A program made the position numbers and the translations under genes. Positions 5,640 to 61,716 of a DNA stretch of 64,000 nt are shown in pieces. How positions within the stretch are numbered: the first letter of the stretch is position 1; each line of letters opens with the position of its first letter. The DNA comes from a virus, in the IMG/VR virus record IMGVR_UViG_3300017963_000257, positions 1 through 64,000 of that record. The stretch is one strand, 5' to 3'. The notes below the pieces were generated by a model. The model was not told the origin of the DNA. It worked only from the letters and a program-made list of their open reading frames with translations, and ran no database searches.

Positions 5640-5672
5640 AAAGCCCACCAGCTATTTGCCAGTGGGCTTTTG
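5640..5672 (+). terminator. Intrinsic terminator
   Basis: aaagcccac...gtgggcttt+t directly after the stop codon. Confidence 0.55.
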
Positions 5673-5765
5673 AAAAGGAAAACAGTAAGGTTACAGGATG
5701 ACTCTAATTTAAACCATTGGTATCGGAATGTCAAGAAGAAAATTACATGAGGGGGTTTTAATATT

Positions 5766-28065: not shown

Positions 28066-28901
28066 TCTCAATCGCCATAAACCTCGATACTCGCCCCGGT
28101 TTCCTTGAGCAAAAGACCGAGCAGGGGACCATGCTCAACGGGACCCGATCTCTCGATTTCTTCACCGATGGGATCTTGAATAAGGTACGGTTCTTTGAGG
28201 GTCACGACATTGAGGTGACCGTGTTCATTGATGTCCATGACCCATTGCCAACTGAAACAGAAGAATGGCTTTTGACGCAGCATTTCAGAGGACTGATCAA
28301 TAACTTGGTATTCAACAAGCACACAGAACAGTATCTTGGAGAATTTTTTCCAAAATTCAATGACCTCAATTTTCTGAATGCCATGATCCTAACAAGAGGT
28401 GACTACCTCGTGCATTTCGATGGAGATATGGCGGCCTTCATTAAGGACAGGAATGTCATCAAAGAGTGGCTATCCTGGCTTGACAGTGGCCGATTCGATT
28501 TCATCTGCTATCCAAGCCAGTATTCCCCGGCGCCTGCAGTGGATGGCCGGTACAAATCGTACTGGTGGAGCAGCACTCGTTTTTTCATCTGCAAGAGGGA
28601 ATTCATTGATTACACAGAAATCATTAAATGTTTAAGAAGTTCAGAGTACCTGTATGGAAAGTACGGCACTGAAAATGAACCACGTAACCCATGGCTTGAA
28701 CACGTGCTCGGGATGATGGCTGGAGGACAGGAAAGAGTCTTCTATCCCCCGATTCAATCAAAAAGGTACCTGATGTTTTCATGGTCGAGATACTTTTCTG
28801 GAGTTTTAGCGAAGCTGAATGAATGGCCTTACGAAAAGGTCGTTGAGTATGTTGGCGGGATTAGCTATCCATGCGATGTTTCAGCAAAGGAGATGAGATG
28901 A
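28062..28901 (+). CDS. Putative GT-A fold glycosyltransferase
   Basis: RGDYLVHFDGD DxD motif; island context. Confidence 0.55.
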   Translation: MISIAINLDTRPGFLEQKTEQGTMLNGTRSLDFFTDGILNKVRFFEGHDIEVTVFIDVHDPLPTETEEWLLTQHFRGLINNLVFNKHTEQYLGEFFPKFNDLNFLNAMILTRGDYLVHFDGDMAAFIKDRNVIKEWLSWLDSGRFDFICYPSQYSPAPAVDGRYKSYWWSSTRFFICKREFIDYTEIIKCLRSSEYLYGKYGTENEPRNPWLEHVLGMMAGGQERVFYPPIQSKRYLMFSWSRYFSGVLAKLNEWPYEKVVEYVGGISYPCDVSAKEMR

Positions 28902-29974
28902 AAATAGCACTCACAGGGAATGTCTTCCCGTTCGGAATCGGCCATGCTTATGGTGGCGAAAGAATCCTCGGGTATCTGGCCAAAGGGTTGGTCCGGTTGG
29001 GCCATGAGGTTTATCTATTCGCAAGGGAAGGAACCAATGTTCCAGAAGCGACAGATTACATCCCGGTAGGGCCCCTGACCAATGCGTATGATGTCCACTT
29101 TGAGGCGGCCAAGGAGTATTTTGAAAAAGCCGGGTTTGAACCTGATATTTATTTCTGCGGATACTTCGGGGAGGGCTGGTATCCGGAAACGCAAGAGCGA
29201 TGGCCATACTGTGAACTCACATGGAATGTCTGGTGTCATGCGGCGTGGCAGCTACAACAGGTCCCGTTTAACGTGGTGTCGTACTCCTGCGTTCTGCAGT
29301 CAGATTTCAGGGTGCAGGGGATTGAAACCACGATGATCCACTATGGGATACCGCGAGACCTGTATGCTTTTCAGCCAGACAAGGATGACTATGCCTGCTG
29401 GATCGGCAAGCTGGAGGGGGGAAAGGCTCCGCGTATCGGGATTGAACTGGCCAAGGCTGCTGGCGTTAAGCTGGCAATCATGGGACCGCCGTATAACACA
29501 GGCACATTCTGGAACGAGGTTTGCCCTTTCATCGATAACGAGAACATATTCTGGGTGCGCGGTGTTGATGACGGTATGAAGTACGAAATCATGAGCAAGG
29601 CCAAATGTTTGATCTACACGAATGACAACACATGGAAGGAGCATTTTGGGATCATTATGGCCGAGGCCCTGGCCATGGGAACCCCGGTTGTGGCTATGAA
29701 CCGGATCAATCAGGACTGTTCGGTTGTGGTAGACAAAATCATCGACCACGGAAAGCACGGATTCATCCTCAATTATGGGGACTCCACCAATCTCCAGGAG
29801 ATCCTCGACACCGGCGTACCCCTGATCAACCGGATTCACGAGATCGACCCTGCGGATTGCCGGGAACAGTTTGAGAAAAGGTTCACGGCCGAGCTGATGT
29901 CCAGGCGTTATGAATGGCTGTTTGAACGAATTGCACAGGGCGAACGATTTACCAGCGTGGAGGTGCCGTTTTGA
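28898..29974 (+). CDS. GT4 glycosyltransferase
   Basis: YGGERI, GHEV and EHFGIIMAEALAMGTPV. Confidence 0.9.
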   Translation: MKIALTGNVFPFGIGHAYGGERILGYLAKGLVRLGHEVYLFAREGTNVPEATDYIPVGPLTNAYDVHFEAAKEYFEKAGFEPDIYFCGYFGEGWYPETQERWPYCELTWNVWCHAAWQLQQVPFNVVSYSCVLQSDFRVQGIETTMIHYGIPRDLYAFQPDKDDYACWIGKLEGGKAPRIGIELAKAAGVKLAIMGPPYNTGTFWNEVCPFIDNENIFWVRGVDDGMKYEIMSKAKCLIYTNDNTWKEHFGIIMAEALAMGTPVVAMNRINQDCSVVVDKIIDHGKHGFILNYGDSTNLQEILDTGVPLINRIHEIDPADCREQFEKRFTAELMSRRYEWLFERIAQGERFTSVEVPF

Positions 29975-58044: not shown

Positions 58045-58400
58045 ATGCCTGGAAAGATTGTATGGATCGATACGGAAACAGGGGGGACAGATCCTAAAAA
58101 GCATGCTCTCCTTCAAACGGCTGTTGAGATTTTTATCGACGGGGATCTGAAGGAAATACGTAGACCGGTATGATCCCTTGGATAAGTTCGTGTTCGCAGG
58201 ATACAATGCCAGGTTCGACATGGACTTTGTGAGGGCTCTCTTTGAGAAAAGCGGGGATTCGTACTTTGGAAGCTGGTTTTACTCGGCTCCTTTGGATGTG
58301 ATGTCCTTCGTTGCTGAAGCGGTTCATAGCTTCCAGCCACGATGCTATGGAGGATATCCGTGCCACAAGGAAGTTGTACGGAAAACTGAAAGTTTTATGA
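58045..58400 (+). pseudogene. DnaQ/DEDDh exonuclease remnant
   Basis: ExoI WIDTETGG, ExoII GYNARFD and ExoIII HDAMEDI separated by two frame changes. Confidence 0.75.
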
Positions 58401-58414
58401 GGAAGGGGGTGCGG

Positions 58415-58879
58415 ATGTCACGATACGCTGAGAAAACATCTGTCTCGGTTGAAAAATCCAAGGCTGAAATTGACAAAATACTTCAGCGGTACGGTGCCAG
58501 CCAATTTATTTCAGGATGGGATCAGGAAATGGCTTACATCGGTTTTTATATGGCCGATAGGATGGTCAAGTTCGTTCTACCTCTACCTCCGAAGGATTCC
58601 GATGAATTCATACGCACGCCCGGGAGAAGGACTAAGCGAACTCACGAGAAGGCCTTGGCCGCATGGGAACAGGCCTGCAGGCAGAGATGGAGGGCCTTGT
58701 CATTGGTCATTAAGGCGAAACTGGAGGCGGTTGAAACCGGGATTACCAGTTTTGAAGACGAATTCCTCGCGCATATTATGTTGCCGGATGGACGGACAGC
58801 GGGTGAGTTTCTAAAACCCCAGCTGGATGTGGCATACCAACAGAAGAAAATGCCGAAACTTTTACCATGGGGGAATTAA
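58415..58879 (+). CDS. Phage hypothetical protein
   Basis: MSRYAEKTSVSVEKS..IKAKLEAV..FEDEFL. Confidence 0.7.
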   Translation: MSRYAEKTSVSVEKSKAEIDKILQRYGASQFISGWDQEMAYIGFYMADRMVKFVLPLPPKDSDEFIRTPGRRTKRTHEKALAAWEQACRQRWRALSLVIKAKLEAVETGITSFEDEFLAHIMLPDGRTAGEFLKPQLDVAYQQKKMPKLLPWGN

Positions 58880-58976: not shown

Positions 58977-59561
58977 ATGATCCTGTCCCTTGACATCGCC
59001 TTCAACAACATCGGTTGGTCGATTTTCCATGATAAGCAAGTGGTGGACCTGGGGGTGATAAGCGCTCCGAAGTCGGGCCGGAAGATCGTATCGGTCGCGG
59101 ATGAACGCGCTGATCGGTGTGCGGCCATGACCGGTATGCTGATGGACTTAATTTTTCAGTATAAAGTTCCGGCGATCATCGGGGAGCTTTCGGCGGCATC
59201 CCAGAACGCAGCGGCTGCGAACATGCTGGGCTGGGCCAATGGGCTCGTGGTTGCCACATGCAGGATCTTGGAATTGCCGGCCGAATGGGTAACTCAACAT
59301 CAGGTGAAGATTGCAACGGTAGGCAGGAAGAACGCAACGAAAGATGAGATTATGGATCGAGTGGCAGGTTATTATGGATGGGAACGGACGGAAAAGGCCG
59401 TCAATATAACGAAGGGAAAGAGGACAGGAAAAACAACGATGAAAGTAACTTATCACGTTTTAGGGAGGAAATACCCGAAGGGCACCTTTGAGGACATTGC
59501 GGATTCAATAGGTGTTTATTGGGCGTCGAAGGATAGGAATTTGGTAAGACTTTATGGTTAG
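58977..59561 (+). CDS. RuvC-like Holliday junction resolvase
   Basis: ILSLDIA, IIGE, VKIATVG..ATKDEI and DIADS. Confidence 0.75.
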   Translation: MILSLDIAFNNIGWSIFHDKQVVDLGVISAPKSGRKIVSVADERADRCAAMTGMLMDLIFQYKVPAIIGELSAASQNAAAANMLGWANGLVVATCRILELPAEWVTQHQVKIATVGRKNATKDEIMDRVAGYYGWERTEKAVNITKGKRTGKTTMKVTYHVLGRKYPKGTFEDIADSIGVYWASKDRNLVRLYG

Positions 59562-59739
59562 GAGAATACATGGAAAGAAAAACTTTTTGTCCAAACGATG
59601 GATTCGGAGTTAGCGTGGATGAAGCCAGCTATTGATGACTTAGGCATTAAATGCGAATGCCCTGGTTGCCATAGGCTAATTTCAATAACCGCATGCCCAA
59701 TTTGTGGGCAAAAAATAACCCCGCGGAAAGGAGACAAGG

Positions 59740-60429
59740 ATGGTAAGTAGCATCGCAGGAGATTTTTATCGGTTGGAAATTCGTTTTGCTGAAGACTTTT
59801 TGGGGACGGTCCCAAAGAGCAAGGAGGTCTATAAGAAATACATTGCCAGCAAGAAGCCGGACCTCACCGACGATGAGCTTGATGAAGAAGTGAACAGCGT
59901 TCAGGACACAGAAGAAAAGGGGTGGACAGGGTTTCACAAGGATGATAATGGCCTGTTTATCTTTGATTACATGCTAAAGGGATTCATTAAGGCATCCTTC
60001 GAAGTATGCCAGGAGATTGGCGCCATCGATAAGGTGAAGGCATACAGGAAATGGATCGACGAGCTGATCTTCATATGGCCGCGGAAAATCTATTGTGGGC
60101 AGTCTGATCCCGATAGCACCCTTGAGAGACCGTTGAGGGTTATGACAATGCAGGGACCTCGGGTTACGTTAAGCCGTTCAGACACGATGGCCGAGGGGAC
60201 CCGACTCAGGTTTCTCGTTGAGGTGTTGGGGAAAAAGATCAAGTGGGAATCGATTGAGCAGGTGTTCGACTATGGTAGGTATGTGGGGCTGGGACAATGG
60301 CGTGGGAGTGGTGGATTTGGTCGGTTCGAGCTTGAGGATGTAACCCCAATAAACAAAGAATTGGGCATCAAAGCCAAAGCGATGGCAAAGCAAAGCGACG
60401 AACAGTTTTGGCAGTGTTTGGAGCAGTGA
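59740..60429 (+). CDS. Solitary Cas7/RAMP-like protein (Vipr-like)
   Basis: beta1 YRLEIRFAEDFLG, IFDYMLKGFIK (RAMP ..LKG.. helix), thumb ERPLR..GPRVTL, G-rich loop GLGQWRGSGGFGRF; AAGGAG RBS. Confidence 0.75.
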   Translation: MVSSIAGDFYRLEIRFAEDFLGTVPKSKEVYKKYIASKKPDLTDDELDEEVNSVQDTEEKGWTGFHKDDNGLFIFDYMLKGFIKASFEVCQEIGAIDKVKAYRKWIDELIFIWPRKIYCGQSDPDSTLERPLRVMTMQGPRVTLSRSDTMAEGTRLRFLVEVLGKKIKWESIEQVFDYGRYVGLGQWRGSGGFGRFELEDVTPINKELGIKAKAMAKQSDEQFWQCLEQ

Positions 60430-60797
60430 TGGCAGTGTTTAGCGCCGTTCTGTGGTGGTATTGTTAAGCACAGTGAAGTAGCGGCATGGTTTGGCAGGTC
60501 CCGGCATGGGCACAGTGTAGCATGGTAAGGTTTCGGCAGGGTAGAACCTCGTACCGCGTCGGCAATGTTCCGTGAGGTGGCGTGATGGTGTGGTGAAGCG
60601 CGATAGAGTAACGTGGCGGCATAGTCTCGTTAAGTGCAGTGTCGGCAAAGCAAAGCGGGGTAGCCAAGAGCAATGGTAAAGCACGCTTATCGCATGGTGA
60701 GGTATTGTATCGGCATGGCACAGCATGGTAGGGTCGGTAATGGTAGAGTAAGGCACCGTGTCGTGATGCAGCGGCGCAGCTCAGCGGAGTTGAGCGG
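60383..60797 (+). ncRNA. Pentameric NGY-NN repeat array (candidate guide-RNA array)
   Basis: 80 pentamers in 16 units, 73 with NGY by hand count; units begin YGGYR. Confidence 0.75.
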
Positions 60798-61716
60798 AGG
60801 CAGCTTCCCAGGCTTTATACACCCTATCCCTGATCATCTTGGGGGTCGGGTGGAGATACCGTTCGCGGATTGTCTCCACCTTGTCCCCCAAGAGAAAGGC
60901 GATGTCCTCAATCCTCATGTTTCCAGTGTAGAACAGGTAGGTGGCCGTGTAATGGCGAAACGTATGAGGTCCTCTACCATCCTTCCCGTTCTTCAGGCCC
61001 AGGTCTTGCAACATCCGTGTGATTTCAGATTTGATCTTGTCGACATTTGGGAAAAGACAGCTTGTTTTATTGTTAATCACACAATGTGTCTTTTTGTATT
61101 CCGCATTTGCCAAAAGTTCGGCCAACAAAACAGCTGTTTTCCTTGAGAAAACAACAGGCCGGGGCTCAGTCTTCCCCTGGATGAAAACACACATTTCGTA
61201 AAGGTGAATATCTTCCATCCTGATCCCCGCTATCTCTCCAACCCTGGCGCCGGTTTCTACCAGTAGGCGCACGACCACTTGAAATTCTAGGGCGCGAGTG
61301 CTTGCAGTCAGGACATTCCCATTGTTAAACCGATATGCAAGACATTTCTCAATGTCTTCCTCTGTGAACCAGCGGTCCAGATGCTTCCTTTTGTTTTCCT
61401 GCCGGTCTTTGTTGGGAATCCGGTAGGTGAACTCCGTTGGATACCCCGCCCACTTCAGGAAAATCTTGGTGCAGTTTAAATACTGCTGTACGGATTTTCC
61501 AGACAGACCTTTGGATTCAAGATATGTTGCGAAGTCGCCAAGGTTGCTTGATACAACCTCAAATTTCTCATGACATATGGCGGCTGGACAGCCCAGCGCC
61601 GGAGATTCTTTCATGAAATTCTCAAGGTGTCCAAGCACATACCCATATAGTTCCCGCGTAGACTTCGCAAGGCCTTTGACTTCAGGTGATTCAAGGTATT
61701 TCTGAATTATGTTCAT
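60781..61716 (-). CDS. Second tyrosine recombinase (XerC/D-like)
   Basis: TGARVGEI, GPHTFRH and LLGD..RY. Confidence 0.85.
   Translation of the reverse strand: MNIIQKYLESPEVKGLAKSTRELYGYVLGHLENFMKESPALGCPAAICHEKFEVVSSNLGDFATYLESKGLSGKSVQQYLNCTKIFLKWAGYPTEFTYRIPNKDRQENKRKHLDRWFTEEDIEKCLAYRFNNGNVLTASTRALEFQVVVRLLVETGARVGEIAGIRMEDIHLYEMCVFIQGKTEPRPVVFSRKTAVLLAELLANAEYKKTHCVINNKTSCLFPNVDKIKSEITRMLQDLGLKNGKDGRGPHTFRHYTATYLFYTGNMRIEDIAFLLGDKVETIRERYLHPTPKMIRDRVYKAWEAASAQLR

What the first reader, a model, noticed from the sequence alone, without database searches (positions are those of the whole stretch)
60383..60797. Two-level grammar of the array: NGY-NN pentamers grouped into 26/31-nt YGGYR units
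Hand parse: t ggcaa agcaa agcga cgaac agttt | t ggcag tgttt ggagc agtga | t ggcag tgttt agcgc cgttc tgtgg | t ggtat tgtta agcac agtga agtag | c ggcat ggttt ggcag gtccc ggcat | g ggcac agtgt agcat ggtaa ggttt | c ggcag ggtag aacct cgtac cgcgt | c ggcaa tgttc cgtga ggtgg cgtga | t ggtgt ggtga agcgc gatag agtaa cgtgg | c ggcat agtct cgtta agtgc agtgt | c ggcaa agcaa agcgg ggtag ccaag agcaa | ... | c ggcgc agctc agcgg agttg agcgg. 73 of 80 pentamers have G at position 2 and Y at position 3 (roughly 1/8 expected per pentamer, though the register was fitted by eye). The extra phase-shifting base is a pyrimidine in 15 of 16 units, and the first pentamer is GGY in 15 of 16. Inference: the +1 base marks processing sites or guide-segment boundaries.
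Basis: seen in the sequence. Interest (0 to 1): 0.85.

Follow-up and report, generated by a model that had tools for sequence, protein, structure and literature searches.

The report
Phage VIPR guide-RNA array, staggered type
The periodic stretch is real: it is the guide-RNA array of a phage VIPR system, a CRISPR-like RNA-guided DNA-binding system first described in 2026 preprints, so it is a new example of a known kind.

Summary
Window 60384-60797 (+) is a chain of about 80 NGYNN pentamers with a +1 shift every 4-6 pentamers. The fitted-register score is 69.5 against 8.0±2.2 in shuffles. There is a spectral peak at 5.2 nt (z 25) and none at 3 nt.

The gene just upstream (59740-60429) has no Pfam or PHROG match. 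It folds as a minimal Cas7-type RAMP and aligns with the phage SUSP1 Vipr family (hhalign probability 94%, E 1.3e-7).

In 79 of 80 related viral loci the same grammar lies beside this gene on the same strand. Shifts fall every 5-6 pentamers, and the first pentamer after a shift is GGYA.

This is VIPR (bioRxiv 10.64898/2026.04.26.720920), which already reports YNNNG repeat variants and "staggered" arrays.

What this report adds:
- The clade has no conserved accessory gene.
- The two residues that read G1 in SUSP1 are replaced here, which fits N at position 1.
- Units of 5-6 pentamers equal one turn of the published Vipr filament.
- In one close pair, G2 is fixed, Y3 changes only by transitions, N4 and N5 change least, and the indels are exactly 5 and 26 nt.

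No targets were found, and RNA ends could not be tested.

The parts
59740..60429 (+). vipr gene: a minimal Cas7-like RAMP. The conserved core is residues ~10-198, ending near 60335. The last ~15 codons are unconserved read-through into the array.
   Evidence: 352 homologues that end just after GLGQWRGSGGYGRFE. AF2 model pLDDT 85. Foldseek and VIA top hits are all Csm3, Cmr4, Cas7-11 or type VII Cas7, with E 6e-6 and Z up to 11.7. hhalign against the SUSP1 Vipr family gives probability 94%, E 1.3e-7 over 173 columns.
60384..60674 (+). Regular part of the vrRNA array: 11 staggered units of GGYAN + (NGYNN)3-5 + 1 nt. Unit ranges: 60384-60409, 60410-60430, 60431-60456, 60457-60482, 60483-60508, 60509-60534, 60535-60560, 60561-60586, 60587-60617, 60618-60643, 60644-60674.
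   Evidence: DP parse; lag-26 z=7.4; 5.2-nt spectral peak z=25.
60675..60797 (+). Less regular 3' part of the array: short units 60675-60690 and 60691-60711, a 12-pentamer run 60712-60772 with one off-register pentamer, and a last unit from 60773. The final 17 nt overlap the 3' end of the convergent integrase gene.
   Evidence: DP parse; ORF list.
59598..59750 (+). Small zinc-ribbon ORF (two CxxC motifs) that overlaps the vipr start. A weak candidate accessory gene, and not conserved in the clade.
   Evidence: Only 6 of 76 loci with an upstream ORF have a two-CxxC ORF in this position, and no neighbour cluster is shared by more than 5 loci.

Best explanation
The array is the guide-RNA (vrRNA) array of a phage-encoded VIPR system, and the upstream gene encodes its Vipr protein.

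Inferred for this locus: vipr and the array are transcribed together.

Shown for phage SUSP1 in the preprints, inferred here: Vipr protomers bind the RNA one per pentamer and sequester G2 and Y3. They present N4N5, which pair with double-stranded DNA while skipping every third target base. Binding silences genes of competing phages or prophages.

This clade differs from SUSP1 in four ways:
- Position 1 of the pentamer is free (NGY rather than GGY).
- There is no 3' tail after each guide.
- There is no conserved accessory gene.
- The array is 'staggered': every 4-7 pentamers (mostly 5-6, i.e. 26 or 31 nt) one extra base shifts the register, and the next unit opens with GGYA.

My reading (inference) is that the shift ends one Vipr filament and GGYA nucleates the next. 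Each unit would then be a separate guide of about one filament turn, whether or not the RNA is cut there.
For: Protein:
- RAMP fold with a thumb hairpin (residues 126-150) and an invariant G-loop.
- Profile-profile homology to the SUSP1 Vipr family. The profile finds the SUSP1 vipr ORF, which is flanked by GGYNN repeats.

Array:
- 79 of 80 related loci carry the same grammar on the vipr strand. Of 73 non-redundant arrays, 61 start directly at the vipr stop and 5 lie upstream.
- Family-wide GY autocorrelation peaks at 5, 10, 16, 21, 26, 31, 36, 52 and 57, and is negative at 25, 30 and 35.
- Unit sizes are 4:166, 5:301, 6:275, 7:141. The first pentamer after a shift has G .77, G 1.0, Y .95, A .57.
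- The RNA is no more structured than shuffles (z=+1.2), as expected for a protein-coated guide.

Protein-RNA fit:
- The G1 readers of SUSP1 (H17, D177) align to T23 and Q186, both invariant in this clade.
- The G2 and Y3 readers W178, R179 and M72 align to W187, R188 and M78.

Evolution, L005 against L006 (Vipr 96.6% identical; vipr third codon positions 27% different):
- Substitution rates by pentamer position: pos1 .24, G2 .02, Y3 .33 (all transitions), N4 .08, N5 .16.
- Indels are exactly 5 and 26 nt.
- N4N5 dinucleotide usage correlates with codon positions 1-2 (r=.73). The other five frames give -.69 to .14.

Filament geometry: 6 subunits per turn without DNA and 5 with DNA, which matches the unit size.

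Literature: VIPR, YNNNG variants and staggered arrays are described in 10.64898/2026.04.26.720920.
Against: - There is no expression or RNA-end data for this locus or this clade.
- No target was found under any tested rule, though the searches had low power.
- A unit of 5 pentamers specifies only 10 nt under the N4N5 rule. Such units match the phage's own 73.7-kb genome with 0-1 mismatch as often as shuffled units do. Single units may therefore be too unspecific to act alone.
- The thumb arginine of SUSP1 (R138) could not be mapped reliably in the alignment.
- Single-sequence matches to SUSP1 Vipr are weak.
- The VIPR type (I-VII) could not be assigned, because the figures and supplements are not held.
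Confidence: 0.88

Rival explanations
1. It is a VIPR array, but the whole ~415-nt transcript acts as one long RNP. The +1 bases would be flexible linkers, or would compensate for filament or DNA geometry once per turn. Neighbouring units would then read neighbouring or cooperating DNA sites, rather than being independent processed guides.
For: The units are too short for specific recognition on their own. There are no tails, ribozymes or hairpins between units that could direct cleavage. Unit length equals one filament turn.
Against: A whole-array collinear search with boundary offsets of 0-3 nt found nothing above chance, but only in 0.6 Mb of local sequence. The preprint draws staggered arrays as separate vrRNAs. 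The one-unit indel shows that units are gained or lost as modules.
Confidence: 0.3
2. It is a DNA-level element. A 5.2-bp periodic motif (half a helical turn) would serve as binding sites for the adjacent tyrosine recombinase, a partition or replication protein, or as curved DNA.
For: The coherent period of 5.2 bp is half of 10.4 bp. The array abuts an integrase gene.
Against: Across 80 loci the array goes with vipr, not with an integrase or any other gene. It is always on the vipr strand. Unit lengths vary from 21 to 36 nt family-wide, so 5.2 is not fixed. The constraint is purine/pyrimidine-specific on one strand: G2 is fixed and Y3 changes only by transitions.
Confidence: 0.03
3. It is an RNA decoy. 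The phage Cas7-like protein and the repeat RNA would soak up or mis-assemble host CRISPR Cas7 complexes, acting as an anti-CRISPR.
For: The protein has a Cas7 fold. Phage RNA anti-CRISPRs are known (my own knowledge, not checked here).
Against: The pentamers do not resemble CRISPR repeats. The protein is homologous to a Vipr that has been shown to bind DNA. The variable positions evolve like information-bearing guide positions.
Confidence: 0.03
4. It is a chance pattern or an odd coding sequence.
For: ORFs of 85-105 aa can be drawn on the minus strand, and the vipr ORF runs into the array.
Against: z is about 28 against shuffles scored with the same fitted register. There is no period-3 signal. 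The grammar is conserved in 79 loci although the sequences themselves are unrelated.
Confidence: 0.005

Closest known systems
VIPR type II (Escherichia phage SUSP1, KT454805; P. fulva prophage), bioRxiv 10.64898/2026.04.26.720920 and 10.64898/2026.04.26.720927
   Same: A ~200-aa single-RRM RAMP with a G-loop (G-x-G-[DQ]-W-R...F-G-R-F) and a thumb. Pentamer-repeat RNA lies next to the gene on the same strand. G2 and Y3 are fixed and N4N5 vary. It is phage-encoded with no cas genes.
   Different: SUSP1 vrRNAs have 9-16 GGYNN repeats followed by a ~40-nt conserved tail with a pseudoknot, and are separate ~100-nt RNAs. Here position 1 is free, there are no tails, and units of 4-7 pentamers follow each other with a 1-nt stagger for 415 nt. 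SUSP1 has an accessory gene, vap1, and this clade has none that is conserved. The G1-reading residues H17 and D177 are T and Q here.
'Staggered vrRNA arrays' and YNNNG-type repeats of other VIPR types (fig. S17, fig. S18 and Methods of 10.64898/2026.04.26.720920)
   Same: A 1-nt offset between successive vrRNAs, with the end of one marking the start of the next. The repeat has only one fixed G plus Y. This is very probably the same architecture.
   Different: I could read only the legend, not the figure, so the match in unit length and motif is unverified. According to the text, staggered arrays were not confirmed by small-RNA sequencing. The type of this clade is unknown.
Class 1 CRISPR-Cas backbone (Cas7/Csm3/Cmr4 on crRNA)
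   Same: The same fold (Z 10-11.7). One protomer binds per short RNA segment, and a thumb breaks the guide-target duplex periodically.
   Different: The period is 5 nt with three bases sequestered, not 6 nt with one flipped. There is no repeat-spacer array, no Cas1, and no Cas5, Cas6 or large subunit. The specificity bases are non-contiguous.
TIGR-Tas (tandem interspaced guide RNA arrays)
   Same: A non-CRISPR, often phage-borne, short-period guide array next to a small effector gene.
   Different: According to 10.64898/2026.10.21.760802, TIGR arrays have an 18-nt entropy period and a TasA effector. Here the period is 5 nt and the protein is a RAMP.

Membership tests
VIPR | Vipr protein: a minimal RAMP (single RRM core, glycine-rich loop, thumb hairpin), ~20 kDa | tested here: met
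   AF2 model pLDDT 85. Foldseek E 6e-6 and VIA Z up to 11.7 against Csm3, Cmr4 and type VII Cas7 over residues ~4-211. The G-loop residues G183, G185, Q186, G191 and G194 are invariant.
VIPR | Sequence homology to an experimentally characterised Vipr (SUSP1) | tested here: met
   hhalign of A3 against A2: probability 94%, E 1.3e-7, 173 columns. The profile finds the SUSP1 vipr ORF at E 0.002. The PDB chain 36pp_D 'SUSP1 Vipr protein' matches only weakly by sequence, E 0.23.
VIPR | Tandem pentanucleotide repeats with fixed G and Y and variable NN, beside vipr and on its strand | tested here: met
   for the window; for 79 of 80 related loci.
VIPR | Canonical GGY trinucleotide, i.e. G at position 1 of every repeat | tested here: not met
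   G1 is .37 in the window and .28 family-wide in inner pentamers, and is high only in the first pentamer of a unit. The preprint lists YNNNG as an accepted variant, and the G1-reading residues are replaced here. This marks a variant, not an exclusion.
VIPR | Not part of a CRISPR-Cas locus | tested here: met
   No Cas1 in the genome, no tandem or CRISPR-like repeats, no Rfam family. The neighbours are phage genes.
VIPR | Accessory gene (vap) next to vipr; typical but not universal | tested here: not met
   No neighbour protein cluster is shared by more than 5 of 81 loci. The small upstream ORFs are not conserved.
VIPR | Conserved structured 3' tail after each repeat tract (a type II feature) | tested here: not met
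   Units abut without spacers. The array folds no better than shuffles. No hammerhead or other Rfam RNA was found in 20 related loci.
VIPR | The vrRNA is expressed and co-purifies with Vipr | not testable with these tools
   No transcript data are available.
VIPR | N4N5 read double-stranded DNA with a 1-nt skip; natural targets lie in competing mobile elements | tested here: inconclusive
   No target was found above chance in the own genome, in 0.6 Mb of related loci, or in 3 exact IMG/VR scans. Indirect support: N4 and N5 are the slowest-changing variable positions and have codon-position-1-2-like composition.
CRISPR-Cas class 1 | Repeat-spacer array plus an adaptation module (cas1/cas2) and a multi-subunit effector | tested here: not met
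   Only the Cas7-like fold is shared.

The most novel reading that the evidence does not exclude
Staggered arrays may encode one-turn mini-filaments of 5-6 Vipr protomers that each specify only 10-12 bp. Specificity would then come from many such units acting together on one unprocessed transcript, either tiled or multi-site. The extra base would act as filament punctuation and GGYA as a nucleation site. That is a different specificity logic from the 9-16-repeat guides of type II VIPR.
Probability: 0.25. Interest if true: 0.65.

Novelty: new member of a known kind. Interest (0 to 1): 0.4.

Why it matters
VIPR is a very recent discovery: an RNA-guided DNA-binding system proposed as an ancestor of the CRISPR RAMP proteins. 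All experiments so far are on type II systems with long tailed guides.

This window and its 79 relatives give a well-defined clade with no accessory gene, in which guides are only about one filament turn long and are separated by a single base. This is the architecture the preprint left unconfirmed. It poses three concrete questions:
- How are the boundaries read?
- How can 10-12 specified bases be specific enough?
- Does replacing the G1-reading residues free a third programmable position?

For the scan itself, the result shows that a reader with no tools recovered the published grammar from sequence alone.

Tried and rejected
- Pfam, PHROGs and NCBIfam give nothing for the protein. PADLOC gives only a weak Csm3 hit, E 0.022.
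- A single-protein scan of IMG/VR and blastn against phages found nothing. tblastn against phages found 5 distant records, none of them SUSP1.
- Tandem Repeats Finder and Rfam find nothing in the array.
- The promoter and terminator scan shows no clear signal between vipr and the array.
- Target searches used N4N5, N5N1 and N4N5N1 with target periods of 2-6. They covered single units against 0.5-0.6 Mb of related loci with position-preserving shuffles, units against the own genome, and the whole array with boundary offsets of 0-3. All gave chance-level results. An apparent excess for N4N5 with a 1-nt skip disappeared with a proper control.
- Three exact NNx patterns from the longest clean runs (window, L061, L038) gave 0 hits in IMG/VR. 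The tool needs exact matches and at least 14 fixed bases, so ordinary 5-6-pentamer units cannot be searched this way.
- Unrelated loci share no guides beyond chance.
- The preprint's supplements are not held, so the VIPR type is unassigned.
- The fold library predates the release of the Vipr structures, so no direct structural comparison with Vipr was possible.
- The genome collection gave only 5 small MAG contigs from different phyla, so the host is unknown.

Full report
**The observation.** Window 60383-60797 lies between an ORF on the + strand (59740-60429) and a convergent tyrosine-recombinase gene (60781-61716, -).
- Base-identity autocorrelation against 1000 dinucleotide shuffles peaks at lag 5 (z 6.5), lag 10 (5.6) and lag 26 (7.4), with further peaks at 21, 31 and 36.
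- No other 300-nt stretch of the window comes near this. A chain search of the whole 73,680-nt virus record finds no second array on either strand.
- A dynamic-programming parse allows steps of 4, 5 or 6 and scores only G at position 2 and Y at position 3.
- The parse has 79 pentamers, 71 of them with G2 and Y3, and 14 shifts of +1. The extra base is a pyrimidine in 13 of 14 shifts and is followed by GGY in 13 of 14. The score is 69.5, against 8.0±2.2 (maximum 18.5) for shuffles scored with the same fitted register.
- Spectral power is sharp at 5.2 nt (z 25.5) and absent at 3 nt (z -1.1), so the refuting condition 'codon pattern' is not met.

**The neighbouring gene.**
- The 229-aa ORF has no Pfam, PHROG or NCBIfam match, and only a weak PADLOC Csm3 hit.
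- It has 352 homologues of about 200 aa. These end just after an invariant GLGQWRGSGGYGRF motif, so the last ~30 residues in the window are unconserved and the last ~15 codons are read-through into the array.
- An AF2 model (pLDDT 85) matches only Cas7-type RAMPs at the top of the lists: Cmr4, Csm3, Cas7-11 and type VII Cas7. Foldseek gives E about 6e-6 and VIA Z up to 11.7 over residues ~4-211.
- The model has a long beta-hairpin at 126-150 (the thumb), a coil at 181-195 (the G-loop), and a helical insertion at 28-52.

**The association is conserved.** A profile scan of IMG/VR returned 80 loci with 35-65% identical proteins.
- In nearly all of them the strongest 5-nt-periodic stretch lies next to the gene.
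- With the chain search, 79 of 80 have an array on the gene's strand. Scores are 21-464, against 3.5-10 on the opposite strand, except where the motif is the self-complementary NGCNN.
- Of 73 non-redundant arrays, 61 start at the stop codon, 5 lie upstream, and 7 lie further downstream or on both sides.
- Arrays run from 22 to about 260 pentamers. L032 has about 2.5 kb of array on both sides of the gene.
- No other protein cluster is shared by more than 5 loci.

**The two-level grammar is general.**
- Among ~7,100 steps there are 1,250 shifts of +1 and only 33 of -1.
- Unit sizes are 4 (166), 5 (301), 6 (275) and 7 (141) pentamers.
- The pentamer after a shift has G .77, G 1.0, Y .95, A .57. 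Inner pentamers have G1 at only .28.
- Independently of the parse, the averaged autocorrelation of 'GY' over 72 arrays peaks at 5, 10, 16, 21, 26, 31, 36, 52 and 57, and is negative at 25, 30 and 35.
- Lineages differ in whether Y is mostly C (L053) or mostly T (L045).

**What it is.** A literature search found bioRxiv 10.64898/2026.04.26.720920.
- It describes VIPR: phage-encoded Vipr proteins, proposed as an ancestral RAMP, with vrRNAs made of YNNGG pentamers. The NN bases read double-stranded DNA while skipping every third base, and the system silences competing phages or satellites.
- It defines seven types, reports variant repeats (NNNGG, YNNNG, NNNNG), and describes 'staggered arrays with overlapping vrRNAs'. 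[quoted passage not shown]
- Rotated, NGYNN is YNNNG. In that register each unit here is (YNNNG)n followed by one more G, which forms the GG that opens the next unit. That fits the legend of fig. S18.
- Staggered arrays were not among the architectures confirmed by small-RNA sequencing.
- Three further preprints exist, and the PDB sequence copy holds 36pp 'SUSP1 Vipr protein'.

**Membership tests.**
- I located the SUSP1 system in KT454805. The window family's profile hits one ORF (28474-29061, -; ALH47069.1) at E 0.002. A 146-aa gene follows it, and intergenic regions of ~450 and ~530 nt flank the pair. These contain GGYNN runs, each with a ~40-nt tail.
- A profile of 26 SUSP1-family proteins against 36 window-family proteins gives hhalign probability 94%, E 1.3e-7 over 173 columns.
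- The genome has no Cas1.
- The locus therefore meets the defining features of VIPR. It departs from type II in lacking G1, the tails and a vap gene.

**Protein-RNA consistency.**
- The cryo-EM preprint reports G1 read by H17 and D177, G2 by R138 and W178, and Y3 by R179, E71 and M72. I checked the numbering against the SUSP1 ORF.
- In the hhalign alignment, H17 and D177 correspond to T23 and Q186, both invariant in this clade. W178, R179 and M72 correspond to W187, R188 and M78.
- So the readers of the two conserved bases are kept and the readers of the relaxed base are replaced. R138 falls in a poorly aligned stretch and is not mapped.

**Evolutionary test.** L005 and L006 have 96.6% identical Vipr proteins, and 27% of their third codon positions differ.
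- Their arrays are collinear. Substitution rates by pentamer position are pos1 .24, G2 .02, Y3 .33 (16 of 16 are transitions), N4 .08, N5 .16.
- The only two indels are 5 nt (one pentamer) and 26 nt (one unit).
- Conservation therefore follows the pentamer grammar. N4 and N5 change more slowly than the near-neutral positions, as expected if they carry guide information.
- This rests on a single pair with 49 aligned pentamers.
- Over 3,627 clean inner pentamers, N4N5 dinucleotide usage correlates with codon positions 1-2 of phage genes (r .73). It does not correlate with the other five frames or orientations (-.69 to .14). That agrees with the published finding that skips fall on wobble positions, but a binding preference for a purine at N4 would explain it too.

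**Mechanism of the +1.**
- The published filament has six protomers per turn without DNA and five with DNA. The commonest units here have five or six pentamers.
- I infer that the extra base interrupts protomer-protomer stacking, and that the full GGYA motif nucleates the next filament. Each unit would then be a one-turn guide.
- Whether the RNA is also cut there is open. The array has no ribozyme, hairpin or Rfam match.
- There is a problem for independent units. Five pentamers specify 10 nt, and such units find sites with 0-1 mismatch in the phage's own genome as often as shuffled units do. Cooperative or tiled action therefore remains a serious rival.

**Targets.** None was found.
- Single units and the whole array were tested with N4N5, N5N1 and N4N5N1 at several target periods, against the own genome and 0.6 Mb of related loci. 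All results were at chance once the controls preserved position.
- Three exact NNx scans of IMG/VR returned nothing.
- Unrelated loci share no guides.
- These searches have low power and do not bear on the main identification.

**Verdict.** The element is a member of a kind described in 2026, in an architecture that has not yet been studied experimentally.

Noticed in passing
L032:2062-5250: This locus has staggered arrays on both sides of vipr: about 900 nt upstream and 1,640 nt downstream, roughly 95 units in all. The block lies between two tRNA genes (1019-1090 and 5646-5716). It is by far the largest array in the set.
   Followed up: partly
window 60781-61716 (-): The tyrosine recombinase converges on the array, and its last codons overlap the final 17 nt of the array. 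Integrases are not conserved neighbours of vipr in the other loci.
   Followed up: partly
window 59598-59750 (+): A 50-aa zinc-ribbon ORF (CECPGC...CPIC) overlaps the vipr start by 11 nt. Five other loci (L027, L035, L040, L048, L055) also have a two-CxxC ORF just upstream of vipr. This could be a sporadic accessory gene.
   Followed up: partly
window 16734 (+), 16795 (-), 55337 (-): The concatenated N4N5N1 string of the unit at 60410 matches three own-genome sites at 11 of 12 positions (TTTGGCAGAT core). Two of the sites form an inverted pair 60 nt apart. About 0.3 such sites are expected by chance for this one unit, so this is probably chance.
   Followed up: no
window 60384-60398 vs 60644-60658; 60410-60419 vs 60431-60440: Partial unit duplications occur within the array: ggcaa agcaa agcga against ggcaa agcaa agcgg, and ggcag tgttt twice. 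This suggests units arise by local duplication followed by divergence.
   Followed up: no
window 58178-58879 (+): This ORF has a DnaQ-like exonuclease start and a C-terminal 150 aa that match phrog_17260 (unknown function, E 3e-60). With the RuvC-like gene at 58977-59561 it forms a recombination module just upstream of the VIPR locus.
   Followed up: no
L085-L089: The only hits in the species-representative genome set are small contigs binned into MAGs of unrelated phyla (WOR-3, Patescibacteria, Bacillota, Desulfobacterales). They are probably phage contigs, so the host of this clade stays unknown.
   Followed up: no
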